Assembly: GCA_034189085.1 (NCBI GenBank)
Contig: JAXHVH010000003.1
Coordinates: 45,094-109,093, forward strand
Direction of reading: 5' to 3'
Length of the DNA: 64,000 nucleotides
Source of the DNA: Bacillota bacterium
Lineage (GTDB): Bacteria; Bacillota; Dethiobacteria; DTU022
A program made the position numbers and the translations under genes. This document shows, piece after piece, positions 9,701 to 37,539 of the stretch. Numbering within the stretch: position 1 is the first letter of the stretch; each line of letters starts with the position of its first letter. The notes beneath the pieces were generated by a model. That model searched no databases. It was not told the DNA's origin and was given only the letters and a program-made list of their open reading frames with translations.

Positions 9701-11356
9701 ATGAAAGAAGAATTCAAAACATGCGATGTACTTGTAGTCGGCGGCGGAGTAGCAGGAATGATGGCTGCCATAAGGGCTGCAGAAGGAGGAGCCAAAGTTA
9801 TTGTTGCGGAAAAAGCGAACACTATTCGAAGTGGTTCTGCCATGATGGGAGTTGATCATTTCCGCAGTTATATACCAGAATACCACGGTGATTTTAGCGA
9901 ATTTAAAAAAGCGTTGGGAAAGGGCCAGGATGCTGCTTCTTTTGCAACGAAAAGCACCGAGTATCTGAAAACGGTATTTGAAAATTCGGCATTGCTGGTA
10001 AAAAAATGGGAAGAATGGGGTATCCCCATTAAATATCATGGGAAGTACCATTTTGCAGGGCACACGTTTCCGGGCGATGATCCCAAAATGGGCGGATGGC
10101 TTAAAATTTCTGGAATGAATATTAAGCCGGTTCTTACAGAGCAAAGCTTGAACCGTAGTGTGGAAATAGTAAATCGGGTGATGGTTTTTGACCTGCTGAA
10201 AAATAAAGATAATAAAGTGGTCGGGGCTATGGCTTTACACACGAGAGAAAATATAATGGTCATTTTTGAGGCTAATGCAGTTATTTTATCTACCGGTTGT
10301 GTAACAGGCCTGTATCCCAATCCTACTCGAGCAGGTTATTTCAACACCTGCTATCCTTTTTTACATTCCGGCGATGGAAGAATTATGGCTTATAGAGCGG
10401 GAGCTGAACTGGCAGATTTAGAATTGACCAGGCGTCACGCGGGGCCGAAATATTTAATCAAGGCCGGGCAAGCGTCATGGGTTGGGGTTTTAAGAGATCG
10501 CGAAGGCAACACGGTTGGACCCTTTCTGGATAAGCCTGATGCGCGTTATGGTGATATGACTGTCGAAGTTAATAAGGAGATTTTTGAGGAATACAGGAAC
10601 CAGGGTAAAGGTCCGATTTACATGGATATGAGTGGTATTACGGATAAAGATTATGAAGAGATGCTTCATTACTTAAGCAATCAATCCGGCACTGCCTTTT
10701 TGGAACACTTTAAACAAACGGGTGTCAATCTCAGGAATGCCGCTGTTGAATTTACCACTTTTGAACACGCTGTATCCAACGGGATCCAGTTCAATCACAG
10801 GGGTGAAACTGGAGTTAATGGTCTCTATGCCGCAGGGGATGAAAGCCGTGGAGGCCTTGGTTTGGCGGCAACCATTGGTTGGAAAACGGGAGAGCATGTA
10901 GCTGAATCTGTTAGATCAATCAGTTCACCAGGTATCAGTGGAGCGGAATCTCTAATTGATGATAGCATTAGACTGGTTAAAGATATAAGAACCCGGGAAG
11001 TGGGTGCCTGCTGGCAAGAAGCCTATGCTGTTCTTCAACAAATTACCAATGATTATTGCGGTTCTGTGCGTTCACAATCAATTTTGGAGGCAGGATTGGA
11101 TTTCCTTGAGAAAATGAAGATCCGGACCAGAGACACCCTAAAAGCAAATGATGCGCATGAGTTAATGTATTGTATGCAGGCTTTGAACTTAATGGATCTT
11201 GCTGAATTATTATTTGTTGCTGCGCTTGATAGAAAAGAGACGAGGGCGTTGCATAAACGGCCGGACTACCCACTGACAAATCCACTGTTAACCGGCAAGA
11301 AACATATTATCAAACAAAAGAATGGCACACCGGTTACAGAGTGGCGTAATGTATAA
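9701..11356 (+). CDS. FAD-dependent oxidoreductase, AprA-like (SDH/FRD/APS-reductase flavoprotein superfamily), copy 1
   Basis: DVLVVGGGVAG dinucleotide fold; EKANTIRSG resembles AprA EKAxxxRSG; GLYAAGD; C-terminal RKETRALHKRPDYP. Confidence 0.85.
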   Translation: MKEEFKTCDVLVVGGGVAGMMAAIRAAEGGAKVIVAEKANTIRSGSAMMGVDHFRSYIPEYHGDFSEFKKALGKGQDAASFATKSTEYLKTVFENSALLVKKWEEWGIPIKYHGKYHFAGHTFPGDDPKMGGWLKISGMNIKPVLTEQSLNRSVEIVNRVMVFDLLKNKDNKVVGAMALHTRENIMVIFEANAVILSTGCVTGLYPNPTRAGYFNTCYPFLHSGDGRIMAYRAGAELADLELTRRHAGPKYLIKAGQASWVGVLRDREGNTVGPFLDKPDARYGDMTVEVNKEIFEEYRNQGKGPIYMDMSGITDKDYEEMLHYLSNQSGTAFLEHFKQTGVNLRNAAVEFTTFEHAVSNGIQFNHRGETGVNGLYAAGDESRGGLGLAATIGWKTGEHVAESVRSISSPGISGAESLIDDSIRLVKDIRTREVGACWQEAYAVLQQITNDYCGSVRSQSILEAGLDFLEKMKIRTRDTLKANDAHELMYCMQALNLMDLAELLFVAALDRKETRALHKRPDYPLTNPLLTGKKHIIKQKNGTPVTEWRNV

Positions 11357-11408
11357 AGAGAAAAATACTGATAATCAGGGTGTTAAAGGTTAGGAGGAGA
11401 TGTTTGTT

Positions 11409-11636
11409 ATGCCCCCGGTTATTAATACTAAATTATGTGATGGTTGTACAGGCAGGGAATACCAGATTTGTGTTGAGCACTGTCCATTTGATGTTTTTAA
11501 AAGTACGGAGATAGGGAAGCCGCCGTTAATTGCCAGGCCAAATGAATGCTGGTATGAGAATGCCTGTGTAATGGATTGTCCAAAGAGGGCCATAAATTTA
11601 CGGATCCCTTTACCAATGCATATCGTGGTGAAATAA
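11409..11636 (+). CDS. AprB-like ferredoxin, copy 1
   Basis: MPPVINTKLCDGCTGREYQICVEHCP mirrors AprB CDGCxxxxxTACxxxCP; second motif CWYENACVMDCP; SD AGGAGG favours ATG 11409 over 11400. Confidence 0.85.
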   Translation: MPPVINTKLCDGCTGREYQICVEHCPFDVFKSTEIGKPPLIARPNECWYENACVMDCPKRAINLRIPLPMHIVVK

Positions 11637-11878
11637 CGCTTCTCGAAAAATTAACGACCCGGTTATGGCTTCATTCTTTTTGGGCAAGAAGTTATATGAA
11701 AATCATTTTTCTTCACCGCCTGATAAGGAGCTGTAACTAGAGTCGCGACTTGGAAGGCTGATTATGCGCATTATAACGAAGAGGGATTAGAAGGTAATCT
11801 ATGTAAGGAGGTGTTCATCACCCCGCTACAAGCAAAATTGCTTTATTATGCATCAAAAAACTTGAGGAGGTATTTATT

Positions 11879-12919
11879 ATGAAGAAACGATTTTTGCTAA
11901 CATCCCTAATCCTTATTGTAGTTGCTGTGTTTGTGTTTACTTTAGGATGTGGGGGGACTGAAGAAAGTGTGGAAGAACCTGCAGAGGAATCTGCAGAAGA
12001 ATCTGCAGAAGAATCTTCCGAAGAGGTTACAGAAGAAGCAGGGGTTGACTTCCCGGAATCAGGCAGGGAGATACTCCAGTTGTGCCCGTTTGGTGCCGGC
12101 GGCGGTTTTGATACAACAGCACGCTATTTTGCGCAGCACCTTACAGAGGACCTGGGAGTTCCGGTAATCACGGAGAATAGAACTGGATCCGGTGGAATTA
12201 TCCCGTTGCTGGACATGCAGAAAACAGAACCGGATGGTTACACCCTGACATTTGTAGCCAGGGCTACTCACCCGCCGCAGCAAGCACTTCATGGTGCAGA
12301 TATTAGATTGGAAGATCTTACCTACATCGCTGGTGTCAAAGAAATTCCATATGTTTTATGTGTAAGTAAAGATTCAGATATTGAGACGTTAGATGATTTA
12401 AAAAATAAAGATTCCGTTGTTTTAGGCACCTCCGGTTCAGGGCATATCAGTGAAATAAGTGCTCATCAACTGGCCGACACTTTTGGCTTTGAGCTAAAGA
12501 AAATACCTTATGATGGGTTAGCTGCAGTAGGTGCCGCCATATTGTCCGGTGAAGTTGATATGGCTTTCTTAAGCGGGACTATCATTGAATCGCATAAAGA
12601 CAATTTAAGACTCCTGGCCATATTCACAGAGGAAAGATCAGATTACTTTGATGTCCCCACCATTGGAGAGCTGGGATATGATTTGTTTTTACCTGTTGAA
12701 ACAATGGGTTATGTCGGACCTCCAGGCATGGATGATGAAGTAGTGGAAATCCTGAGAAGCGCCTTAGAAAATGTCGTCAACAAAGAAGAAACACAGGAGT
12801 GGGCAGCAAGTTTAAAAGAAATAGTTAAGTATATCCCACCGGAGGAAGTGAAGGCGAGCAACCTGGAAGTTATAGAAATTTGTACTGAATATAAAGACTT
12901 GTTAATGGGAAGCGAATAA
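11879..12919 (+). CDS. tctC: Tripartite tricarboxylate transporter substrate-binding protein (TctC/Bug family), lipoprotein
   Basis: PFGAGGGFDTTAR, ENRTGSGG, DGYTL, PYDG motifs; lipobox LGC followed by acidic linker. Confidence 0.88.
   Translation: MKKRFLLTSLILIVVAVFVFTLGCGGTEESVEEPAEESAEESAEESSEEVTEEAGVDFPESGREILQLCPFGAGGGFDTTARYFAQHLTEDLGVPVITENRTGSGGIIPLLDMQKTEPDGYTLTFVARATHPPQQALHGADIRLEDLTYIAGVKEIPYVLCVSKDSDIETLDDLKNKDSVVLGTSGSGHISEISAHQLADTFGFELKKIPYDGLAAVGAAILSGEVDMAFLSGTIIESHKDNLRLLAIFTEERSDYFDVPTIGELGYDLFLPVETMGYVGPPGMDDEVVEILRSALENVVNKEETQEWAASLKEIVKYIPPEEVKASNLEVIEICTEYKDLLMGSE
11981..12016 (+). repeat. Three tandem copies of a 12-nt unit (GCAGARGAATCT, encoding AEES)
   Basis: gcagaggaatct gcagaagaatct gcagaagaatct in the TctC linker. 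Confidence 0.85.
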
Positions 12920-12945
12920 ACTAACCACAGGTTGCTGAACAAGTA

Positions 12946-13020
12946 AAATAGAGGGAATAATGAATACAGCATGAGACAGCCATTCAGCACATATAGAACA
13001 ATCCATTGTTCCCTCTATTT
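12946..13020 (+). other. Long-loop intergenic inverted repeat after tctC
   Basis: AAATAGAGGGAATAATG pairs with CATTGTTCCCTCTATTT (17 bp, one G-U pair). Confidence 0.6.
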
Positions 13021-13282
13021 CTTAAATATTTTATTGAAATATCTATTGCCGGTTGGGATTTCTTACCTGTTTTGCTGATCTAAATAAAGAGAATTGATTA
13101 TCGTGTAAACAGGGGGAAGGGTGAAAGATACATCCCCGGCGTTTAATTTTTGATATGAGCCTGGGCAGCGGGCGAATATTGTTTTACTGGATTGCTTGGC
13201 AGCTACATTATAACTGTCATGGGGAGAAAAGCTTTAAATTATTATTGTATTGCACATATCCTTTACCAAAGGAGAATGTAAT

Positions 13283-13747
13283 TTGACAAAGCAAAATATT
13301 CTGGGTGAATTAATTTTAAAATTAATATTGTTAATTTATGGTTTATATTATTTTATCGAGACAATAACCATGGACATATCCTATAATGCCAGGATATATC
13401 CCTTTATCATCAGCCTGGCTTTTAATATTTTAATGATCATGTTAACCTCGGAGGTATTCAAAAAATATTTGGAACAAGCGAAAAACGACAGGCAATCCTT
13501 CAAAATTATTACTCCGGAAGCAATAAAACTATTCAGTACTTATGCAGCAGGAATCTTATTAATAGCTTTAACATTACTGGTCAATTATTGGCTTGCCATT
13601 ATTGTCGCGTTGCCTCTATTGGCATATGTCTTGGAAGACAAGAAGTTTTCGCTTATTTCCTATGTGTTTCTTCCCGTGGGGATGATCATAATAGTCTATA
13701 TTATTTTTGTCAGGTTTTTAAGTGTAAGGTTGCCAGTTGGGTTCTAA
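13283..13747 (+). CDS. tctB: Tripartite tricarboxylate transporter small membrane subunit (TctB family)
   Basis: Four hydrophobic helices, ARIYP motif, C-terminal FVRFLSVRLPVG; between tctC and tctA; TTG 13283 after AAGGAG. Confidence 0.78.
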   Translation: MTKQNILGELILKLILLIYGLYYFIETITMDISYNARIYPFIISLAFNILMIMLTSEVFKKYLEQAKNDRQSFKIITPEAIKLFSTYAAGILLIALTLLVNYWLAIIVALPLLAYVLEDKKFSLISYVFLPVGMIIIVYIIFVRFLSVRLPVGF

Positions 13748-13835
13748 AGGATTTACCAGTATTTCTGGCATGAGTATGATTATATAAAAAGCTAAAGATT
13801 GTCATACATTTAATATGAAAGGAAATTTATGCCAT

Positions 13836-15308
13836 ATGGAGTATATCGAAGTAGGGATTTTTCTCTGGGTTGTCGTTGGACTGTTAATCGGTATTTTGGT
13901 TGGGGTTTTGCCCGGTTTGGGCGCCGCCACCGCTTTATCCCTCCTTGTGCCCCTGACCTACAAAATGGATACAAATATCGCTATCGCTTTTATTATGGGC
14001 GTTTTTGTAGGGGCAGTATATGGCAGTTCAATTACTTCTATTTTATTGAATATTCCGGGATCGGCAACATCTGTAGCCACGATGTTTGATGGGTATCCCT
14101 TAACGGTTAAAGGTTATTCTTTGACAGCACTTGGTGCATCGATTACCTCTTCTTCAATAGGTGGGATAGCCGGAGCTTTATTTCTGATGTTTGTTAGCCG
14201 CTACATTGCCAATTTTTTTATGCATAACATGGATTCACCGTCTTATTTTTGGATCATTATGATTGCCCTTTCCTGTCTTATTACAGCTATAGGGAAAGAT
14301 CGTACCATTGGGTTTGCATCAGCTTTGTTCGGGCTGATGGTTGGCACGATCGGGATGGATATGATGTCCTTTAATTATCGATATAATTTTGGCAGTTTTT
14401 ACATGGGTGATGGTATACCTATGGTTCCTTTAATATTGGGAATCTACGCATTATCCCATATCATGACATTATCCCAAAGAGAAGTGGGCGAATCCATATC
14501 GAAAAGCGTGCAAATGCATGGCAGTTTATGGGAAGGGGCCAAGCAAACTCTTATTAATTGGGTCCTGGTCATAAGATCCATTATTATTGGTGCAGTAATC
14601 GGTGTCTTCCCGGGGATAGGAGGGGCCACTGCTAATTTAGTTGCTTACTATAATGCTAAAAGCAAATATAACCAGGATGATACATTTGGTAAAGGTGATA
14701 TTCGGGGTGTAATTGCTGCTGAAGCATGCAATAATGCAACGGTGGCATCAACTTTAGTCCCAACATTTACACTGGGAATTCCGGGTGGAATCCCAGCGGC
14801 GATTCTTTTAAGTATACTTATGATTCACGGGTTGACGCCCGGGCCTACTTTGTTTACTGAGAATGTAGATTTTGTTAATCAGACCTTTGTAACTGTTTTA
14901 ATTGCCAATCTTATACTGTTCCCCATTGCTATTTTAACCCTCAGATTCTTTGCCAGAATCACGACGGTGAAAATAAGCATCTTGGTACCATTCCTATTGG
15001 TTTTTGTTGTTTATGGAGTTTATGGGCTGCAGCGGTCCCTTTATGATGTGATCATAGTATTTGTTTTTGGGTTGATCGGTTATTTATTTAATAAATACAA
15101 TATACCAATTGTCCCATTTCTCATATCTTATCTGTTAGGCCCTATGTTTGAAGTAAGTTTGAGGAGATCATTAAGAGCTGGCGATGATATTTTCATCCTG
15201 GTATCAAAGCCTTTTCACATTGTTCTGGCCATCATAGCCCTTTTGCTTATTGTTGGGCCGCCACTTTACAATTTATTTGTTAAAAAACCGTTAATAAAGC
15301 AAGCTTGA
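13836..15308 (+). CDS. tctA: Tripartite tricarboxylate transporter large membrane subunit (TctA family)
   Basis: GVLPGLG, NIPGSATSVATMFDGYP, AAEACNNA, PTFTLGIPG, HGLTPGP motifs. Confidence 0.93.
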   Translation: MEYIEVGIFLWVVVGLLIGILVGVLPGLGAATALSLLVPLTYKMDTNIAIAFIMGVFVGAVYGSSITSILLNIPGSATSVATMFDGYPLTVKGYSLTALGASITSSSIGGIAGALFLMFVSRYIANFFMHNMDSPSYFWIIMIALSCLITAIGKDRTIGFASALFGLMVGTIGMDMMSFNYRYNFGSFYMGDGIPMVPLILGIYALSHIMTLSQREVGESISKSVQMHGSLWEGAKQTLINWVLVIRSIIIGAVIGVFPGIGGATANLVAYYNAKSKYNQDDTFGKGDIRGVIAAEACNNATVASTLVPTFTLGIPGGIPAAILLSILMIHGLTPGPTLFTENVDFVNQTFVTVLIANLILFPIAILTLRFFARITTVKISILVPFLLVFVVYGVYGLQRSLYDVIIVFVFGLIGYLFNKYNIPIVPFLISYLLGPMFEVSLRRSLRAGDDIFILVSKPFHIVLAIIALLLIVGPPLYNLFVKKPLIKQA

Positions 15309-15367
15309 AATTGTGATAATGGATGGCCAGCCACAATACTAAACAGGACTGGGAGGTTAATATCATA

Positions 15368-16066
15368 TTGAGAAAAAATATTGAACTTGTCAATAAACTT
15401 GTCCAGTCGTGCCATATACTCTCAATGGAGGGGCACAATGATATTATTCTGGGCCATGTAAGCGCGCGTATTCCCGAATCGGAAAGTGCGTTAATTAAAT
15501 CAAGCGGGAAAGCCCTGTGGGAAGTTACACCAGATGATGTTATCGCTATTGACTTCGAGGGCACTATAATCGACGGAAATAAAAAGTGTCATAAAGAATA
15601 CCCGATTCATACAGAAGTATACCGTCTCCGGGATGAAATCAATTGTGTTATTCATACTCATCCTTTTTATAGTACCATCATTTCTGCTGCTGGCATAAGC
15701 ATTAAGCCGGTTAGTAACGAAGGAACCATTTTTTTAGACACGCCAATATTTACAGATACTACAGAGTTAATCCAAACTTCTGAACAAGGTGTAGCAGTGG
15801 CAAAGAAGATGGGGAATAATTATGCGCTGCTGTTGCAAAATCATGGGATAGTTGTGGCGGGGAGAACTATAGAGGAGGCCACAATTTTTGCTGTAAGGTT
15901 AGAAAAGGCAGCCAGGGCACAGTATTTCATAGAAGCGCTTGGATCCTACAACTACACCAATGAAGATGAATGCAAGAGAAAAATTGAGCAAACATATGAT
16001 CACAAGCAGATCCAGAATTTTTGGGATTATTATTTAAGAAAATTAAATACCGGGAGATTCACTTAA
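15368..16066 (+). CDS. Class II aldolase/adducin family protein (aldolase, epimerase or decarboxylase)
   Basis: GHVSARIP, E-x-PIH, VIHTHP, LLQNHG metal ligands; TTG 15368 after GGGAGG (ORF track start 15323). Confidence 0.88.
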   Translation: MRKNIELVNKLVQSCHILSMEGHNDIILGHVSARIPESESALIKSSGKALWEVTPDDVIAIDFEGTIIDGNKKCHKEYPIHTEVYRLRDEINCVIHTHPFYSTIISAAGISIKPVSNEGTIFLDTPIFTDTTELIQTSEQGVAVAKKMGNNYALLLQNHGIVVAGRTIEEATIFAVRLEKAARAQYFIEALGSYNYTNEDECKRKIEQTYDHKQIQNFWDYYLRKLNTGRFT

Positions 16067-16218
16067 GATGAGTGATTTCCGTTACTCGATGAATCCAATT
16101 GTTATTATGATAGGCATAAAATAAATGGCGCAGGGTAGACTTTGTCAAATCCAAAGAGGTCAGGATTGGTAATATTCTAGAATTACGCATTAATATTTTA
16201 AATAAAGGATGGTATTTA

Positions 16219-16323
16219 ATGGATAAGCCAAGGTTTTCAATGGAAGAAGATTATTTTGCATGTTTACTATCAGCAATTATAGTTATTCTTTGCATGATTG
16301 GAATTTTCCCAAGTTTACCCTAA
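16219..16323 (+). CDS. Small membrane peptide, 34 aa (MDKPRFSMEEDYFACLLSAIIVILCMIGIFPSLP), absent from the ORF track
   Basis: SD-like AAAGGATGG upstream, single hydrophobic helix, 59 nt before the YeiH gene. Confidence 0.55.
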   Translation: MDKPRFSMEEDYFACLLSAIIVILCMIGIFPSLP

Positions 16324-16382
16324 ATTAAATATTTCTATATTGGCAGTTGCTAATTTATGGAGTTAGACAAGGAGATGCAGCT

Positions 16383-17429
16383 ATGGCGAAATTACCTCCA
16401 CAGAAATACAATAGTTGGTCACAGTATTTTTTAAACATACTGCCGGGTTTCTTGCTGGCACTGGTGGGAGCTGTTTTCGTTTGGTCCCTGGTAAGCGTGA
16501 CGCCGCCGAGCTGGCCGGTTAATTATGTCCTTTATTCTATAGTCCTGGGGATGGTTTTGAGGAACGTTGTAAAACTTCCTGTTATTTTTAAGGAAGGCCT
16601 GGGATTTTCAGCTAAGATTCTCTTATTCATGGGTGTTATATTTTTAGGTGGGACAATAGATATTTCAGTTATTATTGCTACCGGTCCACATGCTATAATC
16701 CTTGCAATTATAGCGGTCACTTCAATGATTACACTTTCTTATGTGTTGGGCAGGTTTATTGGACTGCCGGAAGATTCTAAAGCACTGCTGGGCATTGGAA
16801 TGGGCGTATGCGGAGTATCAGCAATTGTTGCGTTAACCCCGGTTATCAAGGCTAAAGAAAGATACATATTAACTGCGATTGTTGCTTCTTTGTTAAACAG
16901 TGTCATCCTTCTTTTTACAATTCCTATCCTGGTTCACTGGATTTCTATGCCAGAGTTACTGGCTGGCTATTGGAGCGGGGCAATATCATCCAACACAGCG
17001 CAGGCAATTGCTACCGGCTTTGCTATTGGTGAAGAAGCAGGAACAATAGCAACGATCACCAAAACAGCTCGTAATGCTTTAATGGCATTTGCCATCCTTT
17101 ATTTTGCCTATTCATACACACGAAAAGGATTACCCATTGGAGTGAAGCTGCGACCTTTATTGATCTGGGAAAAATTCCCTAAATTTATTTTTGGCTTGAT
17201 AATTATGTCACTATTATCGACATTTGGTTTGTTCACAGCGGAAGTGATGGCACAGTTTAAAGATCTTTCGCGGTGGTTTTTTATGATCTGTTTTGTGGGA
17301 ATGGGTTATGAAATTAGTTTTCGTGATTTTAAATTAAATGATTTTAAACCTGTTTTATTTGGTCTATTTTTATCGCTGATTCTGGCAGTAGTTGCCTATC
17401 TTTATATTAATCTGTTTATTCATGTATAG
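16383..17429 (+). CDS. YeiH / putative sulfate exporter (PSE, UPF0324) family membrane protein
   Basis: GMGVCGVSAIVA, TITKTARNAL, FPKFIFG motifs; ~10 TM helices; ATG 16383 after AAGGAG; ends in TAG. Confidence 0.85.
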   Translation: MAKLPPQKYNSWSQYFLNILPGFLLALVGAVFVWSLVSVTPPSWPVNYVLYSIVLGMVLRNVVKLPVIFKEGLGFSAKILLFMGVIFLGGTIDISVIIATGPHAIILAIIAVTSMITLSYVLGRFIGLPEDSKALLGIGMGVCGVSAIVALTPVIKAKERYILTAIVASLLNSVILLFTIPILVHWISMPELLAGYWSGAISSNTAQAIATGFAIGEEAGTIATITKTARNALMAFAILYFAYSYTRKGLPIGVKLRPLLIWEKFPKFIFGLIIMSLLSTFGLFTAEVMAQFKDLSRWFFMICFVGMGYEISFRDFKLNDFKPVLFGLFLSLILAVVAYLYINLFIHV

Positions 17430-17563
17430 CAGCATCAAGGATTGAGGCTACGCTAACAAAATTCATGAAGTATAGACGTAGATTATCTGATACTTACTCA
17501 TTTTTACTGCCGGGCGGGTTTTTACAAACCGGGTAATGCCAGCAAACCATGCAATCAGTCGAT

Positions 17564-17611
17564 TATTGAATTGTGTTATAACTGGTATTACTTTTTGCAA
17601 AAAGGATTGTT
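17564..17611 (+). promoter_or_regulatory. Promoter/operator repeat copy 2, upstream of flavoprotein module 2
   Basis: 41/48 nt identical to 9364-9411; TTGAAT-17bp-TACTTT plus TTTTTGCAAAAA. Confidence 0.65.
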
Positions 17612-17722
17612 GTTTATTTTTTAGAAGTAAATATCAGTTTAAACGAAAGTCCCAAAATAGGCAAAGATACAAAATTGATAAATATAGTACTCAAATATAT
17701 AAATCAGCAGGAGGTTTGTGCA

Positions 17723-17935
17723 ATGATTAAAGAGATTGATCATTCTGGATGTATCAAGTGCGGATTATGTGCCAAATTTTGCCCCGGCAATGTTATCTCA
17801 ATGAATCCATCAGATGGATTGCCTTATATAGAGCACCCTGATGATTGCTGGAATTGTTTCAATTGTGAGCTTATCTGCCCGGTTAATGTCATTTATGTAG
17901 GGCCCTACAGGAAAGAAAAGCCTCTGGCATGGTAA
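17723..17935 (+). CDS. 2x[4Fe-4S] ferredoxin, AprB-like, copy 2
   Basis: CIKCGLCAKFCP and CWNCFNCELICP; ATG 17723 after GGAGG. Confidence 0.9.
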   Translation: MIKEIDHSGCIKCGLCAKFCPGNVISMNPSDGLPYIEHPDDCWNCFNCELICPVNVIYVGPYRKEKPLAW

Positions 17936-17985
17936 GCAAAAAACTATGGATAATAAATAATTACATAAAACGGAGGAACCAATAA

Positions 17986-19671
17986 ATGAATGAACAAGAA
18001 ACCATTGTCAGGAATAATGAATTCATAACCCATATCAGTGACGTACTGGTAATTGGGGGGGGTTTCTCGGGATTATGGGCTGCTCTGAAAGTTAAGGAAA
18101 ATAATGATCTTTCAGTGAATTTGGTCGATAAAGGGTTTTGTGGATCCACCAGCCATTCATTTTTTTCAGGAGGTGGAATGGTTGTTTTAATGCCGGATGA
18201 TGACCTGGATGAATGGGTGGAAGACATAGCAAATTCGAATGAAGGCATAGCAGACAGGAAAGTTTTAAGATCAATCCTGGAGAATTCACAGGCCAGGATG
18301 AGAGATTACGAAACAATGGGAGTTACTTTCCCACGGAGGGATGGTGAGTACAAACGCATCCGTTCCCGTGGTGCAAAAAAGATAAAGCTGCTTGGTTCTG
18401 CTGAGGGTGGAGGTAAAGCAATAGTTTTAGCTCTTCACAAAGAAGCGTTAAAACGGGGAATAAACATAAAGAACAGGATATTTATTATTGACATACTGGT
18501 AAATGAGCAAGGGCAGGCAGGAGGAGCCCTCGGTATAGATATCAATGATGGCAGTTTTCATGTTTTCAGAGCAAAGGCAACGGTAATAGCCACAAATAGT
18601 GGCAGTTTCAGGGGGCACCATTTAGCCAGTGATCAGCAGGGCACCGGGGTATTTGCTGCTTTTAATAAAGGAGCAAAGCTTCAGAACGCTGAATTCCACT
18701 ACATCAATGTCCGTCCGAATAAGTTTGAAATTGAAGGATCTGGAGTATTGCCTAAATTTGGCGCTCGCTGGGCCAATGCGGATGGGGAGTATTTTATGGA
18801 TAAATATGACCCCGATCTTAAAGATCATGCCCCGAATCATACTATACTGGTTGCAATGGCCAAGGAGGCCAAAGCTGGAAAAGCCCCTTTAGGGTTTGAT
18901 ACACCATCTTTTGCTGAAGAAGGGCGTGTCGGTTTTCGTGAAATGATGATGGGGCACGGATGGATGAAGCTTATTTATAACAAGCTAAGAAATGAAGGCG
19001 TGGATTTTTTACGGGACAAGATTGAGTGGAATGCTGCTTACGAAACAAACAGGGTTGGCCTGAAGACGGATTTTGGTGGAAAAGCCTCAGGTATTGAAGG
19101 TTTATTTGCCGCCGGTATGGCTCGCGCGTTTATCCCGAATACTTTAACCGGCTTGTCCATTGCTTATAGCACCTGGTCCGGATATATGGCTGGAGAAACT
19201 GTTGCTAAATACGTCAATGATGTGGAAATGCCTGAAATCGATATGCAGCAGATTCTTTCAGCGCAGGATAGTTTTGTAGAACCGCTCTACAGGGCGGGAG
19301 ACACAACACCGGACAAAGTCGTTGAGGAGTTACAAAAGGTTATTTTCCCTGCTGACGTACTGATTTTAATCACTCATGATAAATTACAGGATGCTCTTAA
19401 TAATGTTGAAAATATCAGGGATAATATTGAAAGTAAAATGGCTGCCAGCAGCATCCATGATCTGATTAAAGTTAGAGAAACCGAAACCATGATTCTATCT
19501 GCAGAGATGACCTTACGAGCCTCCATGCTGCGCAAAGAATCAAGGCCCTTTATTTATTACAGGGAAGATTACAATGAAAGAGATGATCAGAATTGGTTAC
19601 AATGGATAGTTGTTAAAAAGGACGAAAGTGGCTTTTCATTCAGCACTGAAAAAATTCCCAATGATGGTTAG
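17986..19671 (+). CDS. FAD-dependent oxidoreductase, AprA-like, copy 2
   Basis: DVLVIGGGFSG, GLFAAG; C-terminal RKESRPFIYYREDY...DDQNW resembles AprA RxESRxPGxYYRxDY...W; ends in TAG. Confidence 0.83.
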   Translation: MNEQETIVRNNEFITHISDVLVIGGGFSGLWAALKVKENNDLSVNLVDKGFCGSTSHSFFSGGGMVVLMPDDDLDEWVEDIANSNEGIADRKVLRSILENSQARMRDYETMGVTFPRRDGEYKRIRSRGAKKIKLLGSAEGGGKAIVLALHKEALKRGINIKNRIFIIDILVNEQGQAGGALGIDINDGSFHVFRAKATVIATNSGSFRGHHLASDQQGTGVFAAFNKGAKLQNAEFHYINVRPNKFEIEGSGVLPKFGARWANADGEYFMDKYDPDLKDHAPNHTILVAMAKEAKAGKAPLGFDTPSFAEEGRVGFREMMMGHGWMKLIYNKLRNEGVDFLRDKIEWNAAYETNRVGLKTDFGGKASGIEGLFAAGMARAFIPNTLTGLSIAYSTWSGYMAGETVAKYVNDVEMPEIDMQQILSAQDSFVEPLYRAGDTTPDKVVEELQKVIFPADVLILITHDKLQDALNNVENIRDNIESKMAASSIHDLIKVRETETMILSAEMTLRASMLRKESRPFIYYREDYNERDDQNWLQWIVVKKDESGFSFSTEKIPNDG

Positions 19672-19776: not shown

Positions 19777-20016
19777 AGTAAACCCTTATTTGTAATAAGG
19801 GTTTTTCCCCTTATACGGGTTGGGTACCAGGGGTCACAGGTTTATGATAATAAGTGACCACCATCCGACATTTTGGAATGTTATTTGGCTAAAAATTGCT
19901 TTTTAAAAGCCATATTTCATTGAAAATAGTGTATTTGCAGCTTTTTTATTCTATAATATTATAAATGGCATTTGGAGAGGTGTGCATTGATAAAAAAGTA
20001 AAGGGGTTGTCGTCCA

Positions 20017-21411
20017 GTGGAAAAGCACTTTACCAGGATGGGAGACGGGTCGGGCATCTACATGAGCAAGGAAGAGATTCGTGCCGACCTGGCAGATGGA
20101 ACAACCGATGCCGCCGACCGGGGTAAAATTCCTCCCCTCTCTGCGGAGGAGCTGGATTATCTTTATGAAATAGTAGCAACACCGGTCAATATCGTCAGTG
20201 TTGCCCGGGGCAAGGAAACTGTTACTTCTTCAGATTCAGGGGCGTTTAAAATCAATTACCAGGCCGATATCTCCCTTGATCGGGCTATTTCGATCCAGGT
20301 GCATGAAAAGGTTCTCGCCGCTGATTCGCTTGACCTGGGGAACATCGACTACAGCTACAAGTCGGTCAAGGCTATTCTCCATGATGAAGCCAAAGTTATG
20401 GAAAATGTCCAGATGAATACGATCATGCCGGTGCTCTATGGAGCCATGCCAAATCTGGGCTTGTATACAAAGCCTGACGGCCCGGTTGACAACTGGTCTG
20501 AACTGCTTCCCAGGGCAAAGATTGCTGAAGCGAGACAGGCACAGGAAGAAGCTGTCGAGCTGGCGGTCAAAGATATGGTTTACATAGCCGAAGGAATGTA
20601 TAAGGCTGGAGCGGACGGGATGAATTTTGATACCTGCGGTGCTTCGGGAGATGCTGATTTTCTGGCTGCTCTTGAAGCGGTAAAAATAATCAGGGGAAAA
20701 TATCCGGGCTTCGGCATGGAAATGGGAATGGCCGGAGAATTCATTCTTGGTATGCACGGGCAGCTGGAGTACGAAGGTACCAGGCTGGCTGGTTTATACC
20801 CTCATAAACAGGTTAAAATAGCCGAGCAAGCAGGGGTAACCATTTTCGGGCCGGTTGTTAATACCAGCAGCAATCGCTCGTTTCCCTGGAACCTGGCCCG
20901 CGCTGTTACGTTTGTCAAAGCGTGCTGTGAAGCAGCCGATATAGCGGTCCATGTTAATGTGGGTATGGGAGTAGGAGCTACCCCCATGACACCCGTTCCG
21001 CCGGCTGATGCTGTCTCCAGGGCTTCCAAGGCTTTGATTGAAATCGGCAAGGCCGACGGTTTATAGGTGGGTTCCGGTGATCCTTTCGGCAATGAAGCGA
21101 CTCAGGAAGTGGCTTCCGGGATGGGTGGCATTCGCACAGCCGGAGATCTGGTCATGAGAATGCAGTTGTCCCGGGGTTTAAAAATAGAAGCGGCCAAAAA
21201 ATATGTCGCTGAAAAATTGGGCGTTGCAATGGCGGAGCTGAGTGATTGTTCAGTCATGCGTGAAGTAAGGCAGAACCTGGGGCTGGGCTATCCCATGCCT
21301 GATCCGGGAGCAGCCAAAGGCATCGGGGCCAAGATTCGGATAGCCGAAATCATGGGCCTAAAAATAAACTCCGTTGAACAGTTCAAGAAGAAAACGGGAC
21401 TGCATTATTAA
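20017..21411 (+). CDS. mtbB: Dimethylamine:corrinoid methyltransferase with in-frame amber (pyrrolysine) codon at 21064-21066
   Basis: TRMGDG, YGAMPNLGLY, NFDTCGASGD, GMAGEFILGMHG, WNLARAVTF, then KADGL-TAG-VGSGDP, matching MtbB GVDGI-O-IGVGDP; the joined frame gives 464 aa. Confidence 0.95.
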
Positions 21412-21432
21412 TCTATGAAAGAAGGTGGAAAA

Positions 21433-22917
21433 ATGAAGAGGAACCCCATAGCCGGAAGAAACTCTTTTATGGGCTGCGGTCTGAATCTATTCAGCGATTC
21501 AGATCTGGAGATGATTCATGACGCTACGCTGGAGGTGCTGGAATACGCCGGCCTCTATGTCCAGAGCGATGAGGCAATGGATATTTTTGACGGGGGAGGC
21601 TGTATAGTAGACAAGAAAGAGAAAAATGTAAAAATACCCGCCCACATCGTCGAAGAGGCTATCACTTCGGCACCGAAGAAAATATTCCTTGCCGGACGGG
21701 ATCCAAAGCATGATCTGGTCCTTGAAAACGGACGGGTCAACTTTTGTCCTTTCGGTGAAGGCGTAATGGTAATCGATCCCTACAGTGGTGAATACCGCAA
21801 GTCAACCAAGGCTGATAAGGGAAATGTGGCCAGGCTGGTTGACGCTCTGGATCAGTACGACATGCTGGAGAACACTGTGGCGCCGCGCGATGTTCACCCG
21901 GAAATGGAAAGCCTGCATAACTATGAAGTAACTGTCTCCAATACTACGAAACACGTCCCTCAGCCCTGTCATGACAGGCGCTCCGCCCAGCTGCTCATCG
22001 AAATGGCGGCAGCTGTGGCCGGAGGGAAGGAAAACCTTAAAGATAGGCCCATCGTTTCCGGGTGTACCTGTCCCCAGAGCCCCCTGACTATTTCTGCAGG
22101 GTGCGGCGAGCCGATTATCGAATATGCCCGGGCTAATCTGCCCCAGAATATTCTTTCCATGGCCATGGCCGGGGCTACATCGCCGGTCACCCTGGCGGGG
22201 ACGCTGGTAACCCATAACGCAGAGGTACTCGGGGGCATTGTTCTGGCCCAGTTGACCAGGAAGGGCGCGCCGGTGATGTACGGCAGTTCAACGACTATGA
22301 TTGATATGAGACAGGCGACGGCTACGGTCGGCTGCCCCGAGCTGGGATTAATAAGTGCCGCTGTGGCCATACTGGCCCGTTACTATCTGCTGCCCAGCTA
22401 TGTTGCCGGTACTTAGGGCGATAGCAAGGTTTCAGATGCTCAGTCCGGCCATGAAAAAACCCTGACTTCCCTGCTGCCGGCATTGGCAGGTGCCAATATG
22501 ATCTACGGCGGGGGGATGCTGGAGATGGGTTTGACCATGAGCTTTGGACAACTGGTTATGGATAATGAGATCATTGCTATGACCAGGAAAGTTCTTGAGG
22601 GGATCCCGGTTAACGACGAGTCTCTAGCGGTTGATGTAATTAAAAACGTGGGTGCCCGGGGTCACTTCCTGGCTGAAGAGCATACCTACAGGCACATGCG
22701 AGAGCTTTCGGAAAGCAGGTTAATCGATCGCCGGATGCGGCAATTCTGGACTGACAGCGGATCCAAAGATCTTACCCGGACCTGTGATGAAAAGGCAAGA
22801 GAAATATTGGAAAATCACCGCCCGGAACCGCTGCCTGACCAGGTTCATAAAAAGATTTTGTCAATTATCAGGGAAAGGGAAGAAGAACTGGGCATAAAAT
22901 CCCCGGCTAATGAATAA
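21433..22917 (+). CDS. mttB: Trimethylamine:corrinoid methyltransferase with in-frame amber (pyrrolysine) codon at 22414-22416
   Basis: MAMAGATSPVTLAGTLVTHNAEVL, GAPVMYGSSTT, LPSYVAGT-TAG-GDSKVSDAQSGHEKTLT...AGANMIYGGGMLE; reads through into the ORF-track fragment 22483-22917. Confidence 0.95.
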
Positions 22918-22941: not shown

Positions 22942-23613
22942 ATGCCTGAACTTACTTTCCTTGGGCATGCAGCTTTCCGGTTAGGGGAAGAAGGAAGGGA
23001 AACCCTGCTTTTCGATCCCTATATTACCGGTAATCCTCAGGCCCCTCTGAAGTTTGAAGAAGTCGGGGCGGATTACATTTTAGTTTCCCATGCTCATTTT
23101 GACCATCTGGGCGATACATATGAAATTGCCGAAAGGGAAGAAGCGACTATCATATCAACGGCCGAAATTGCCGGTCAGGCAGGTGAAAAAGGGCTGACTG
23201 CCCATGGCCAGCATCTGGGAGGAAGACATCGATTCCAATTTGGTTCGGTCAAACTGACCCTTGCTTTTCACGGCTCGGGGATACCCGGCGGGCATGCCTG
23301 TGGATTTGTTGTCGACTATTACGGAAAGAAAATATATTTTGCCGGCGACACTGCGCTTTTCAGTGATATGAAGTTAATTGGGGAGCTTGATTCTCTCGAC
23401 CTGGCTCTTCTGCCCATAGGAGATAATTACACCATGGGTATCGATGATGCCGTTATGGCTGCTTCTTACCTGCAGGCCGGAGAGGTTATCCCGTATCATT
23501 ACAATACCTGGCCCCTCATTAAAGTAGATCCAGAAGAATTCAAGAAGAAGGTGGAAGATAAAACCGGCAGTAAATGTATTGTCCTTTCACCGGGAGAACA
23601 TCACATCTTCTAA
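22942..23613 (+). CDS. UPF0173 metal-dependent hydrolase (metallo-beta-lactamase fold)
   Basis: FLGHAAF, DPYITGNP, SHAHFDH, YFAGDT, LPIGDNYTMG, PYHYNTWP. Confidence 0.9.
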   Translation: MPELTFLGHAAFRLGEEGRETLLFDPYITGNPQAPLKFEEVGADYILVSHAHFDHLGDTYEIAEREEATIISTAEIAGQAGEKGLTAHGQHLGGRHRFQFGSVKLTLAFHGSGIPGGHACGFVVDYYGKKIYFAGDTALFSDMKLIGELDSLDLALLPIGDNYTMGIDDAVMAASYLQAGEVIPYHYNTWPLIKVDPEEFKKKVEDKTGSKCIVLSPGEHHIF

Positions 23614-23753: not shown

Positions 23754-24632
23754 TCACACTCTTAAGATAGGTCTTGTCAGGCAGGTCGGGCCGCCTCCCC
23801 CTTTGATTGAAACATCTTCCCCGGGGTATTCGTAGACTGTAGCACCTTCTTTTTCGAGGGCTGTTTTTGTCCGGGTATTTCCGGCAATCATAATGCAAAC
23901 CCTTGGTGCTATAGCCAGGACATTGCAGCCGAAAGTATCATATTCTTCATCCGGTACTTCCACTATCTTGATACCTTTTTGCAGGAGCAGGTTACGGAAA
24001 GGTACGGCCATCAGTTTTGAATAAACTACTGCCAGGTCGCGATCAACAGGGCTGATTAACGACATTAAATGCAGGCATTCTTCCGGTCCGTTCCAGTGGG
24101 GTAGCGGTACTTCGATGATTTCATCGACCAGACCAGCGGTTAAGTTCCTCAGTTGAGCCACACCGTCACTGTTTGTGCGGTAACTGAGACCCACAGCCAC
24201 TGTGTTGTCGTCGAACCAGACTACGTCTCCTCCTTCAATTGTTCCCGGCGCCTCGATGGCCCCCAGAATTGGTATGCCCAGATTCTTAAAGAAAGCGCTG
24301 ATTGCCTGCGGCTCAGTTTTTCTTTCCCTTTTTCCCATATTGCATAGAATAACGCCTTTTTTAGTAATCAGGACAGGATCGTGCGTGTAAATTGAATCCA
24401 GTCCTGTTATTTCGTCTTCGGGTAGATAGTGAACATGGGGTACGTTTTTTTCGATAATCGCTGCAAACTGGTTGTATTCAAGCAGTGCTTTTTCAAAGTC
24501 CGGTTTTTCGGGGTAATGGAGCTGCTGCCATTGTCGGTTAACATTGTTTTGGCCCAGCCAGGCTCGGGCGGGACTCTTCATCAGGATTGATTCGATCCTG
24601 CCTGTTTCTGATTGTCCATTATAGCCGATCAT
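23754..24632 (-). CDS. Amidinotransferase / dimethylarginine dimethylaminohydrolase (DDAH)-like protein
   Basis: DSIYTHDP, IEGGDV, RTN, CLHLMS, C-terminal GGGGPTCLTRP (catalytic Cys); ATG 24632 after GGGAGG; only substantial minus-strand gene in the window. Confidence 0.85.
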   Translation of the reverse strand: MIGYNGQSETGRIESILMKSPARAWLGQNNVNRQWQQLHYPEKPDFEKALLEYNQFAAIIEKNVPHVHYLPEDEITGLDSIYTHDPVLITKKGVILCNMGKRERKTEPQAISAFFKNLGIPILGAIEAPGTIEGGDVVWFDDNTVAVGLSYRTNSDGVAQLRNLTAGLVDEIIEVPLPHWNGPEECLHLMSLISPVDRDLAVVYSKLMAVPFRNLLLQKGIKIVEVPDEEYDTFGCNVLAIAPRVCIMIAGNTRTKTALEKEGATVYEYPGEDVSIKGGGGPTCLTRPILRV

Positions 24633-25029
24633 AATACCCTCCCTATACAGGTTGATAATTTTTATCATCTTTATTCTACCATATATCTTCCATTTGCAGA
24701 TCCCTGTTTTATTGACCCAATGGAGTTTGCTCCTGCCAATCAATTGTAGTATCATAATAGCTGATTTAAGAATCATTCCTGAGTTGAGAATAAACAAAAG
24801 GATTAACATCATGAAGGTAGCAATCCTGCCTGTACCGGTCGAAATGAGGTCTTGATCAATACTGCGGGCTGAAAAAAGCTTGAAATTAAAGTTGTTGTTT
24901 TGGACACAACCCCATGGGGACAGTCTATTTGCCCCGCTCATGAACGATTGTTCAGATTTTGCTATTTAAACGGTGTAAAAAAAGCTGAAGCTGTCTTTTT
25001 TGAGGCAAGATGAACTGGAGGAAAAAATC

Positions 25030-26677: not shown

Positions 26678-26786
26678 CTCTTATCCAGAGCGGAGGAGGG
26701 ACAGCCCCGATGAATCCCGGCAACCGGATTTGCTGATCACGGTGCCAATTGCTGCGGGGTGGACTCTTTTCCCTGGGAGATGAGAG
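26678..26786 (+). ncRNA. SAM-I (S-box) riboswitch
   Basis: CTCTTATCCAGAG...GAGGGACAGCCCCGATGAA...GGCAACC...GGTGCCAATT...GAGATGAGAG consensus upstream of metK. Confidence 0.93.
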
Positions 26787-36416: not shown

Positions 36417-37539
36417 ATGTTGGAAGAGTACCGTGAAGAACTGGCCCTTCAGCAGAAGCGGCTGGAAGAGATGAGGGCTTCTCTTTGAATATGATGCCAA
36501 ACTGAAAGAACTGCAGAAAGCTGAAGCAAAGGCAGCTGATCCAAAACTGTGGGAAGACAGTAACAGGGCGCAGAAATATTTAAAAAAACAGGGGGCGTTG
36601 CGTGAACAGCTCAGGCCGCTGCAGGAGTTGTTCACTTTAATTGAAGAAACTGGAGTATTTCTCGAGCTAGCCGGTGAAGAGGAAACCGAGGAACCGGAAG
36701 CGATCGCAGAAGCTGGCCCCCTCCTGGAAGAGATAAAAGAAAGATTGGACCAGATGGAGCTGGAGACCCTTTTTAGCGGTAGCTATGATTTTGGCGATGC
36801 CATCGTTTCTCTTCATCCCGGTGCAGGGGGGCTGGAATCGCAGGACTGGGCTGAAATGCTGCTACGCATGTACAACCGGTGGTGTGAACGCAGAGGATAT
36901 CAGGTTGAGCTTGTCGATCTGCTGGCCGATGATGAGGCGGGAATAAAAAGTGCTACTTTTATCGTCCGGGGGCATGCCGCATACGGTTATCTGCAGGCAG
37001 AAAAAGGAGTGCACCGCCTGATCCGTATTTCACCCTTTGATACCTCCAGAAGACGCCATACTTCGTTTGCGTCTGTTGATGTAATCCCGGAAGTGGAGGA
37101 AGAAGAATATGTGATCAATCCCGATGATTTAAAAATAGATACTTTCCGTTCCAGTGGAGCCGGAGGGCAGCATGTCAATAAAACTGATTCAGCTGTCCGG
37201 ATTACCCACATCCCCACCGGTGTTGTCGTGACCTGTCAAAACGATCGGTCTCAACACAGTAACCGTCAGCAGGCCATGCGTGTCCTGCAAGCCAGGCTTG
37301 CGGAACTAACCCGCAGGGAACGGGCTGAAGAGATCAATGCCGAACGCGGTCAGCAAAGAGAAATTGCCTGGGGCAGCCAGATTCGTACTTATACCTTTCA
37401 CCCCTTTACCCTGGTCAAAGACCACCGAACCGGGGTCGAGATCGGACAGGTTGATGAAGTGATGAACGGCGGGATTGATCCTTTTATTGAAGCTTTTTTA
37501 AGCTGGAAAGCCCGTGGTAAAATACCACTCAAGAAATAG
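36417..37539 (+). CDS. prfB: Peptide chain release factor 2, programmed +1 frameshift at CTT TGA (36483-36488)
   Basis: 23-codon ORF1 MLEEYREEL...MRASL-TGA; +1 frame continues EYDAKL...LWED; SPF and GGQ motifs. Confidence 0.96.

What the first reader, a model, noticed from the sequence alone, without database searches (positions are those of the whole stretch)
21433..22917. Second Pyl gene in tandem: amber-containing trimethylamine methyltransferase MttB
Seen: YVAGT-TAG(22414-22416)-GDSKVSDAQSGHEKT continues in frame to 22917. Known: Pyl-MttB acts on trimethylamine, whereas non-Pyl MttB homologues act on quaternary amines. Two independent ambers, both at conserved Pyl sites, argue strongly against random nonsense mutation. 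Inference: sequential TMA to DMA to MMA demethylation feeding methyl groups into acetogenesis or syntrophic metabolism.
Basis: partly seen in the sequence, partly recalled or inferred. Interest (0 to 1): 0.82.

Follow-up and report, generated by a model that had tools for sequence, protein, structure and literature searches.

The report
Pyrrolysine-type trimethylamine methyltransferase gene (mttB)
This is a genuine bacterial gene for the trimethylamine methyltransferase MttB, whose single in-frame TAG sits at the position where the rare amino acid pyrrolysine is inserted; it is a well-known kind of gene, found here in an uncultured Dethiobacter-related Firmicute where it had not been discussed.

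Summary
Window 21433-22917 (+) is one reading frame of 494 sense codons with one internal TAG at 22414-22416 (codon 328) and a TAA stop.

That TAG aligns with Pyl334 of the solved Methanosarcina barkeri MttB structure (7XCL, E=1e-124). The catalytic helpers Gly110, Met249 and Tyr364 are conserved.

All 18 related genomic loci keep TAG at this codon and stay open for about 160-168 further codons. All 52 closest database proteins end at that column. dN/dS after the TAG is 0.05-0.15, against 0.03-0.05 before it.

The gene lies 21 nt after an amber-containing mtbB (20017-21411). This tandem is conserved in every relative where the upstream sequence is held.

The window and the ±10 kb flanks of the relatives contain no pylTSBCD genes, cognate corrinoid protein, RamA, MT2 or mtmB. 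One relative (L013) has a distant corrinoid protein and an MT2. Pyl decoding and the proposed TMA-to-acetogenesis flow are therefore inferred, not shown. The Rfam PYLIS hits reflect coding conservation, not RNA structure.

Verdict: a real, functional gene and an ordinary new member of a known kind. Interest is modest.

The parts
21433..22917 (+). mttB: Pyl-type trimethylamine:corrinoid methyltransferase, 494 residues counting the amber codon
   Evidence: Single frame. Pfam PF06253 333.6 bits. NCBIfam TIGR02369 729.9 bits against a cut-off of 525. 7XCL E=1.4e-124 and 46% identity.
22414..22416 (+). In-frame TAG (codon 328), the predicted pyrrolysine codon
   Evidence: Aligns to X (Pyl334) of 7xcl and to K of the 7xcm variant. 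TAG is kept in 18 of 18 related loci. All 52 closest database proteins end at this column.
22417..22914 (+). Post-amber coding part of mttB (166 codons), including Tyr358, the equivalent of Tyr364
   Evidence: dN/dS is 0.05-0.15 against relatives. Tyr358 is invariant in all 17 full-length TAG-type genes aligned (the window's and 16 relatives). It aligns to 7XCL residues 335-488.
21420..21426 (+). Shine-Dalgarno-like AAGGTGG, 6 nt before the mttB ATG
   Evidence: Read directly from the sequence. The mtbB stop lies only 21 nt before the mttB start, which suggests co-transcription.
20017..21411 (+). mtbB: Pyl-type dimethylamine:corrinoid methyltransferase, with its amber at 21064-21066
   Evidence: Pfam PF09505 608 bits. 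NCBIfam TIGR02368 483 bits against a cut-off of 369. Its TAG is kept in 15 of 15 relatives. The tandem with mttB is conserved in every locus with upstream sequence.
19934..19962 (+). Promoter-like site (TTTGCA-17-TATTAT) in the 345-nt spacer upstream of mtbB
   Evidence: A consensus scan only, 9 of 12 matches. This is weak evidence.
22942..23613 (+). MBL-fold metal-dependent hydrolase (UPF0173-like), 24 nt after mttB with a strong RBS. It may be co-transcribed, and a functional link is unproven.
   Evidence: Pfam Lactamase_B_2/B_3. NCBIfam NF001911 264.6 bits. It lies downstream of mttB in seven of the related loci (L001-L004, L006, L012, L014), but is missing from L008 and displaced in L014.

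Best explanation
The locus 21433-22917 encodes a functional pyrrolysine-dependent trimethylamine:corrinoid protein Co-methyltransferase (MttB, EC 2.1.1.250). It belongs to an uncultured Firmicute related to Dethiobacter and to MAG ML8_F2. The ribosome reads UAG328 as pyrrolysine, using a tRNA(Pyl)/PylS pair and PylBCD that must be encoded outside this window. This step is inferred. The full-length TIM-barrel enzyme then binds TMA on the pyrroline ring of Pyl, with help from the Tyr358-water-Gly108 network. It transfers one methyl group to the Co(I) corrinoid of a partner protein and releases DMA. This mechanism is inferred by homology to the M. barkeri MttB-MttC structures. The MtbB encoded just upstream would take DMA to MMA in the same way. 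The two genes form a conserved two-gene module, probably one transcript. Unlike the classical mttC-mttB and mtbC-mtbB pairs and the pyl-linked bacterial clusters, this module carries no corrinoid-protein gene of its own. The methyl acceptor, MT2 and reductive activase are therefore supplied in trans. Where Pyl-tRNA is lacking, translation would stop at codon 328 and give an inactive 327-residue product.
For: Shown here:
- One frame with a single TAG.
- The TAG aligns on Pyl334 of 7XCL, E=1.4e-124.
- Gly110, Met249 and Tyr364 map to Gly108, Met243 and Tyr358. These residues are invariant in all 17 full-length TAG-type genes aligned (the window's and 16 relatives), while Tyr is variable in non-Pyl homologues.
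- TAG is kept at the same codon in 18 of 18 related loci, down to 56% identity and including a Dehalococcoidia MAG, with 160-168 further open codons.
- All 52 closest database proteins (63-97% identity) are 315-330 residues long and end at that column. All 68 full-length hits (59% identity or less) carry a sense residue there.
- dN/dS is 0.03-0.05 before the TAG and 0.05-0.15 after it.
- The mtbB-mttB tandem and the mtbB amber are conserved.
- Family models match: PF06253 and TIGR02369.

From the literature: the role of Pyl334, Tyr364 and Gly110-Thr111 in M. barkeri MttB (PMC9842639). The closest named relative, ML8_F2, encodes CODH/ACS and a V-type ATPase (PMC4846661), and the window also carries V-ATPase genes.
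Against: No pylT, pylS, pylB, pylC or pylD was found in the 64-kb window, in 10 kb upstream of it, or within ±10 kb of the gene in 18 relatives. The decoding machinery of this lineage therefore remains unseen.

No cognate corrinoid protein, MT2 or RamA lies in the window.

TAG is an ordinary stop codon here, ending 10 of 50 genes, so read-through must compete with termination.

No RNA structure supports a dedicated insertion element: the fold z-score is +0.24 and the covariation term is -0.69.

The NCBIfam 'equivalog' model also passes non-Pyl homologues. The family score therefore does not prove TMA specificity.

Identity to the only structurally characterised MttB is 46%, lower than to some non-Pyl homologues at 57-59%.
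Confidence: 0.88

Rival explanations
1. This is a Pyl-containing member of the MttB superfamily, but its substrate is not TMA. It could be another tertiary or methylated amine.
For: Identity to the characterised M. barkeri enzyme is only 46%. Homologues at 57-59% identity lack Pyl and presumably use other substrates. The TIGR02369 model does not separate these classes. Thr111 is replaced by Glu109.
Against: To my knowledge, every Pyl-bearing MttB studied so far acts on TMA. The residues around Pyl334 are conserved. The gene is paired with a DMA methyltransferase, which uses the product of TMA demethylation. Glu at position 109 is shared by all 52 TAG-type relatives, and residue 111 acts through its backbone in the structure.
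Confidence: 0.06
2. The UAG is read through, or the gene is otherwise expressed, without pyrrolysine. A suppressor or near-cognate tRNA would insert a standard amino acid, giving a non-Pyl enzyme.
For: No pyl genes were found in any sequence held for this lineage. Non-Pyl relatives tolerate W, L, H or M at this column.
Against: If a standard residue worked, TAG would have been replaced by a sense codon in at least some of the 18 loci. It was not, even though synonymous sites are saturated (dS above 1.5). The same strict TAG conservation is seen in mtbB, a family in which Pyl is catalytic. Pyl clusters are commonly unlinked from some of their client genes, and only about 20 kb per genome could be inspected here.
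Confidence: 0.04
3. The gene is a pseudogene or nonsense allele, or a split gene producing separate N- and C-terminal polypeptides.
For: Gene callers split it into products of 327 and 130-144 residues. TAG is a normal stop codon in this genome.
Against: The stop is always TAG, always at the catalytic column, in 18 of 18 loci. dN/dS after the stop is 0.05-0.15. Only a TTG ORF start at 22483 follows the TAG, 23 codons downstream within conserved coding sequence. The catalytic Tyr358 lies in the downstream part.
Confidence: 0.02

Closest known systems
Methanosarcina barkeri MttB (PDB 7XCL/7XCM/7XCN), the structurally characterised Pyl-dependent TMA methyltransferase
   Same: Same family and length, E=1.4e-124 over residues 2-482. 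The amber codon sits on Pyl334. Gly110, Met249 and Tyr364 are conserved, and the dimerisation-loop region aligns throughout.
   Different: Identity is only 46%. The host is bacterial. Thr111 is replaced by Glu109. No adjacent mttC corrinoid gene is present. Here the gene follows mtbB rather than mttC.
Bacterial pyl-cluster-linked mttB, as in L020 and L023 (mttC-mttB(TAG)-pylSc-pylB-(pylC)-pylD-pylSn). From my own knowledge, this is the layout described for Desulfitobacterium, Acetohalobium and Bilophila.
   Same: A bacterial amber-containing mttB split at the same place, giving products of 328/333 plus about 146/151 residues.
   Different: Those genes are 59% and 43% identical to this one. They sit next to mttC and the pyl genes. 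The window's gene has neither within 64 kb and is instead fused into an mtbB-mttB module.
Near non-Pyl MttB homologues (P0039, P0040, P0042 and others; 'trimethylamine methyltransferase family protein')
   Same: They are 52-59% identical over the full length, and pass the same Pfam model and even the TIGR02369 cut-off.
   Different: They have a sense codon (S, W, L, H, M and others) at the Pyl column, and Tyr364 is often replaced by another residue. By analogy with MtgB and related enzymes, they are presumed to act on quaternary amines.
Desulfitobacterium hafniense MtgB (PDB 2QNE/9YCE), the glycine betaine methyltransferase
   Same: MttB superfamily TIM barrel, E=5.8e-73.
   Different: Leu occupies the Pyl column. 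The score is much lower and the substrate is different.

Membership tests
Pyl-dependent MttB (trimethylamine:corrinoid protein Co-methyltransferase) | Full-length sequence membership of the MttB superfamily | tested here: met
   PF06253 333.6 bits over residues 17-487. TIGR02369 729.9 bits against a cut-off of 525. 7XCL E=1.4e-124. Note that TIGR02369 also passes non-Pyl homologues, so this feature is necessary but not sufficient.
Pyl-dependent MttB (trimethylamine:corrinoid protein Co-methyltransferase) | A single in-frame UAG at the column of Pyl334 | tested here: met
   Codon 328 (22414-22416) aligns on X334 of 7xcl_A. It is conserved in 18 of 18 relatives.
Pyl-dependent MttB (trimethylamine:corrinoid protein Co-methyltransferase) | The reading frame downstream of the UAG is intact and under purifying selection | tested here: met
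   166 further codons run to the TAA stop. dN/dS is 0.05-0.15 against 0.03-0.05 upstream.
Pyl-dependent MttB (trimethylamine:corrinoid protein Co-methyltransferase) | Active-site residues that activate Pyl (Gly110, Tyr364; also Met249) | tested here: met
   Gly108, Tyr358 and Met243 are present and invariant in the 17 full-length TAG-type genes aligned, the window's included. Their roles are taken from PMC9842639.
Pyl-dependent MttB (trimethylamine:corrinoid protein Co-methyltransferase) | The genome encodes tRNA(Pyl), PylS and PylBCD | tested here: inconclusive
   These genes are absent from the 64-kb window, from 10 kb upstream of it, and from ±10 kb around the gene in 18 relatives. The rest of the genome could not be read. 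The best 120 PylSc hits gave no protein traceable to this lineage.
Pyl-dependent MttB (trimethylamine:corrinoid protein Co-methyltransferase) | Partner corrinoid protein (MttC), MT2 and the RamA activase | tested here: inconclusive
   None is present in the window. One relative (L013) has a B12-binding protein and a URO-D-type MT2 about 3 kb downstream. Whole-genome content is unknown.
Pyl-dependent MttB (trimethylamine:corrinoid protein Co-methyltransferase) | TMA-specific methyl transfer activity and Pyl present in the protein | not testable with these tools
   This needs an enzyme assay or proteomics.
PYLIS-type cis element (Rfam RF02510 PYLIS_3) | A conserved RNA secondary structure 3' of the UAG | tested here: not met
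   The Rfam hit scores 81.2 bits against a gathering score of 38, but several model pairs are non-canonical in this sequence. The MFE z-score is +0.24. The 17-sequence alifold covariation term is only -0.69 kcal/mol. The match is explained by coding conservation.

The most novel reading that the evidence does not exclude
Dethiobacter-related Firmicutes of soda lakes, meromictic lakes and serpentinising sites may be unrecognised pyrrolysine users. They would demethylate TMA and DMA with a self-contained mtbB-mttB module that has lost its dedicated corrinoid-protein genes and its linkage to the pyl cluster. The module would then rely on a shared corrinoid protein, or on pyl functions organised in an unusual way. 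At the extreme, it would depend on Pyl made by other organisms.
Probability: 0.15. Interest if true: 0.5.

Novelty: new member of a known kind. Interest (0 to 1): 0.3.

Why it matters
Pyl-dependent methylamine methyltransferases are the only known natural clients of the 22nd amino acid, and they control anaerobic turnover of TMA and DMA. This locus adds a well-supported bacterial example in a lineage common in soda-lake, meromictic-lake and serpentinite habitats. In the papers I could search, methylamine use and pyrrolysine were not discussed for this lineage.

There are two practical points. First, gene callers split the gene, so it needs a transl_except annotation. Second, the NCBIfam 'trimeth_pyl' equivalog alone does not separate Pyl from non-Pyl enzymes; the amber column must be checked. 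Conceptually, the locus adds nothing new to the mechanism.

Tried and rejected
1. **Search for Pyl machinery.**
   - ARAGORN and Rfam on the window found no pylT. ARAGORN on 19 loci also found none.
   - tblastn with PylSc probes, and with PylB, PylC, PylD, PylSn and MttC seeds taken from L020 and L023, found nothing in the window or in L001-L019. The exception was a distant corrinoid protein in L013.
It returned 3729 hits, but none of the 120 listed is named from this lineage.
   - Five look-ups of unnamed NCBI PylSc hits gave WGS records (JBFOMT, MCHG, JADQBO, CAZGDI, POVV) that do not match any MAG carrying the lineage's mttB.
2. **Reading beyond the window on its 111-kb contig.** The upstream 10 kb is housekeeping. 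Three downstream look-ups returned nothing.
3. **PYLIS RNA element.** Rejected as a structural feature.
4. **Functional link to the downstream MBL-fold gene.** Not supported. It belongs to a conserved backbone block (MBL, ADI-like, ParA, PRT, MetK, RecD2) and is missing or displaced in some relatives.
5. **Conserved leader upstream of mtbB.** Only about 55-100 nt is conserved, and only in the two closest relatives.
6. **Literature.** No open paper links Dethiobacter or Desulfitibacter with pyrrolysine or with TMA methyltransferases.

Full report
**Observation.** Window 21433-22917 on the + strand translates as one frame: 327 codons, a TAG, 166 more codons, then a stop. The TAG is at 22414-22416 and the terminal TAA at 22915-22917. 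An AAGGTGG Shine-Dalgarno-like motif lies 6 nt before the ATG at 21433. Mechanical ORF listing splits the gene into 21415-22416 and 22483-22917, as public gene callers also do. Across the whole window, only two + strand TAG codons join two open stretches of at least 100 codons each. They are this one and the one at 21064 in the upstream gene; the lone - strand case is an ORF antisense to a phosphoribosyltransferase gene.

**Identity.** The read-through protein matches Pfam MTTB (PF06253, 333.6 bits, residues 17-487) straight across the TAG. It also matches NCBIfam TIGR02369 'trimeth_pyl' at 729.9 bits against a cut-off of 525. Against solved structures, the best match is M. barkeri MttB (7xcl/7xcm, E=1.4e-124, residues 2-482). 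In that printed alignment the window's TAG falls on the X of 7xcl, which is Pyl334, and on the K of the 7xcm variant. In glycine betaine MtgB (2qne) the same column is Leu. Overall identity to M. barkeri MttB is 46%.

The structure paper names Pyl334, Tyr364, the Gly110-Thr111 cis peptide and Met249 as the key active-site elements (PMC9842639). These map to TAG328, Tyr358, Gly108-Glu109 and Met243.

**Is the amber functional?**
- A scan of one genome per species found 18 related loci (56-97% identity). None is identical to the window.
- All 18 have TAG at the same codon. In the 16 loci long enough to show it, the frame continues for 160-168 codons to a normal stop.
- Nei-Gojobori dN/dS against the window is 0.03-0.05 upstream of the TAG and 0.05-0.15 downstream. 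Synonymous sites are saturated for most pairs. The downstream part is therefore clearly translated and constrained.
- In the protein database, the 52 closest clusters (63-97% identity) are all 315-330 residues long and end at the Pyl column. The 68 full-length hits (59% identity or less) carry W, L, H, M, V and other residues there.
- Gly108, Met243 and Tyr358 are invariant in the 17 full-length TAG-type genes aligned (the window's and 16 relatives). Tyr is replaced in 30 of 68 non-Pyl homologues.

**A caution on family models.** TIGR02369 is labelled an equivalog, yet five non-Pyl homologues with S, W or L at the Pyl column score 622-771 bits, well above its cut-off. The family score does not establish Pyl or TMA specificity. 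The amber column and the active-site residues do that work.

**Context.**
- Upstream, 20017-21411 encodes MtbB, the dimethylamine methyltransferase. It scores 608 bits on PF09505 and 483 bits on TIGR02368 against a cut-off of 369. It has its own amber at 21064-21066, conserved in 15 of 15 relatives.
- The mtbB stop and the mttB start are 21 nt apart. The mtbB-mttB tandem is present in every related locus with enough upstream sequence, including the Dehalococcoidia MAG L018.
- A 345-nt spacer with a weak promoter-like site precedes mtbB. Only its last 55-100 nt is conserved, and only in the closest relatives.
- Downstream, 24 nt after mttB, lies an MBL-fold metal-dependent hydrolase (NF001911). 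A convergent ADI/DDAH-like gene, ParA, a phosphoribosyltransferase, metK with its SAM riboswitch, and recD2 follow. This block is syntenic in the closest relatives, but the MBL gene is absent or displaced in some. I therefore treat it as chromosomal backbone rather than part of the system.
- The pair has 51.8% G+C against 47.1% for the window.

**What is missing.** Every substantial ORF of the window was scanned against Pfam. The window is a Firmicute core region: V-ATPase, gap, TctABC, secA, prfB, ftsEX, uvrABC, whiA, rpoN, pgk-tpi-eno, rnr, smpB and tmRNA. It contains no B12-binding corrinoid protein, URO-D-type MT2, RamA, MtmB, PylS or PylBCD. Neither ARAGORN nor Rfam finds a tRNA(Pyl).

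By contrast, two unrelated bacterial contigs fetched through PylSc hits show the classical layout mttC-mttB(TAG)-pylSc-pylB-(pylC)-pylD-pylSn. Their MttB is only 59% and 43% identical to this one. Seeds from those clusters find nothing in the window or in L001-L019, apart from a distant corrinoid protein in L013. That protein sits beside a URO-D MT2, 3 kb downstream of mttB.

My attempts to locate PylS in this lineage failed for lack of access to whole genomes. Pyl decoding is therefore an inference. It is a strong one, given the conservation of two independent ambers across deep divergence. TAG also ends 10 of 50 ordinary genes here, as is usual for Pyl-using bacteria (my knowledge).

**PYLIS.** Rfam reports PYLIS_3 at 22414-22513 (81.2 bits) and PYLIS_2 at 21064-21163 (49.1 bits), each starting on its TAG. 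The alignments show broken pairs. The 120 nt after the mttB TAG fold no better than shuffles, with a z-score of +0.24. A 17-sequence consensus fold has almost no covariation support, at -0.69 kcal/mol. These hits confirm orthology of the coding sequence, not the presence of an insertion element.

**Organism.** The exact N-terminal product occurs in a Logan assembly of SRR24907504. The window's own record is an NCBI contig of 111,264 bp whose name is withheld. The 90% cluster includes OPL14763.1 from 'Firmicutes bacterium ML8_F2'. This is a Mahoney Lake MAG placed next to Dethiobacter alkaliphilus, with 46.6% G+C, CODH/ACS and a V-type ATPase (PMC4846661).

Other relatives are MAGs labelled Syntrophomonadaceae, Bacillota or Clostridia, and 'Desulfitibacter sp. 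BRH_c19'. Isolate names such as CSSed, CROMO and K_DeepCast point to Cock Soda Lake sediments, the CROMO serpentinite site and a deep-lake water column; this reading of the names is my own. The soda-lake study describes the Syntrophomonadaceae MAGs as Dethiobacter-related and as carrying the Wood-Ljungdahl pathway (PMC6146748). No searchable paper connects these genera with pyrrolysine or with TMA methyltransferases.

**Mechanism.**
- Shown: an intact, selected, amber-containing MttB with a conserved Pyl-activating site, in a conserved module with an amber-containing MtbB.
- Inferred from homology: UAG328 is decoded as Pyl. TMA adds to the pyrroline imine. The methyl group passes to a Co(I) corrinoid protein and DMA is released. 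MtbB repeats this on DMA to give MMA.
- Inferred from a relative's published genome: the methyl groups could enter the methyl branch of the Wood-Ljungdahl pathway.
- Unknown: which corrinoid protein, MT2 and activase serve the pair; whether MMA is used further; and how Pyl synthesis is organised and regulated.

**Verdict.** It is a new member of a well-known kind, with two modest points of interest: the host lineage, and the corrinoid-less, pyl-unlinked mtbB-mttB module. Interest is 0.3.

Noticed in passing
window 20017-21411 (TAG at 21064-21066): The upstream gene is an amber-containing dimethylamine methyltransferase, MtbB. It scores 608 bits on PF09505 and passes TIGR02368. Its TAG is conserved in 15 of 15 relatives. 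GTG at 20017 is the likely start, because gene callers give a 349-residue N-terminal product.
   Followed up: partly
P0039, P0040, P0042, P0058, P0115 (database proteins): The NCBIfam equivalog TIGR02369 'trimeth_pyl' (cut-off 525 bits) also passes non-Pyl MttB homologues, at 622-771 bits, that carry S, W or L at the Pyl column. Automatic naming as '[trimethylamine--corrinoid protein] Co-methyltransferase' can therefore be wrong for such proteins. W and L, the commonest residues there, are each one base change away from TAG.
   Followed up: partly
L005 5694-7109, L009 1362-2765, L013 7047-8513, L015 6788-8227, L007 6254-7669(-): In several relatives a non-Pyl MttB-family paralogue (32-36% identity) lies directly upstream of mtbB-mttB. 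L013 also has a GntR regulator upstream, and a corrinoid protein plus a URO-D MT2 about 3 kb downstream. This suggests a larger methylated-amine island in those genomes.
   Followed up: partly
window 23754-24941 (-): An amidinotransferase-fold gene matches the arginine deiminase and dimethylargininase (DDAH) models, but scores below all NCBIfam cut-offs. It is conserved beside the MBL gene in relatives. A DDAH-like activity would release dimethylamine, the MtbB substrate. This link is pure speculation.
   Followed up: no
window 36417-37539: prfB (RF2) appears to need the classical programmed +1 frameshift. The short frame MLEEYREELALQQKRLEEMRASL ends at CTT TGA (36483-36488), and the +1 frame continues as EYDAKLKELQ... 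into the PCRF/RF-1 domains.
   Followed up: partly
window 26678-26786: A SAM (S-box) riboswitch scores 79 bits, immediately upstream of metK. The listed TTG ORF start at 26749 overlaps it, so the true metK start is further downstream.
   Followed up: no
window 63735-64000: A tmRNA gene scores 87.8 bits and is cut off by the end of the window. It lies directly after smpB (63272-63730).
   Followed up: no
window 9701-19671: Two paralogous FAD flavoproteins of the fumarate-reductase/SdhA type (9701-11356 and 17986-19671) flank a TctCBA tripartite transporter, a class II aldolase, a YeiH-family membrane protein and a small ferredoxin. This looks like an uncharacterised organic-acid utilisation cluster. 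It is present in the window and in its Logan twin (L019), but not upstream of mtbB in L001 or L002.
   Followed up: no
L020 101-5742; L023 10001-19103: Two unrelated bacterial contigs show the canonical pyl clusters with mttC-mttB(TAG). In L023, two choline-kinase-like genes are inserted between pylSc and pylB.
   Followed up: no
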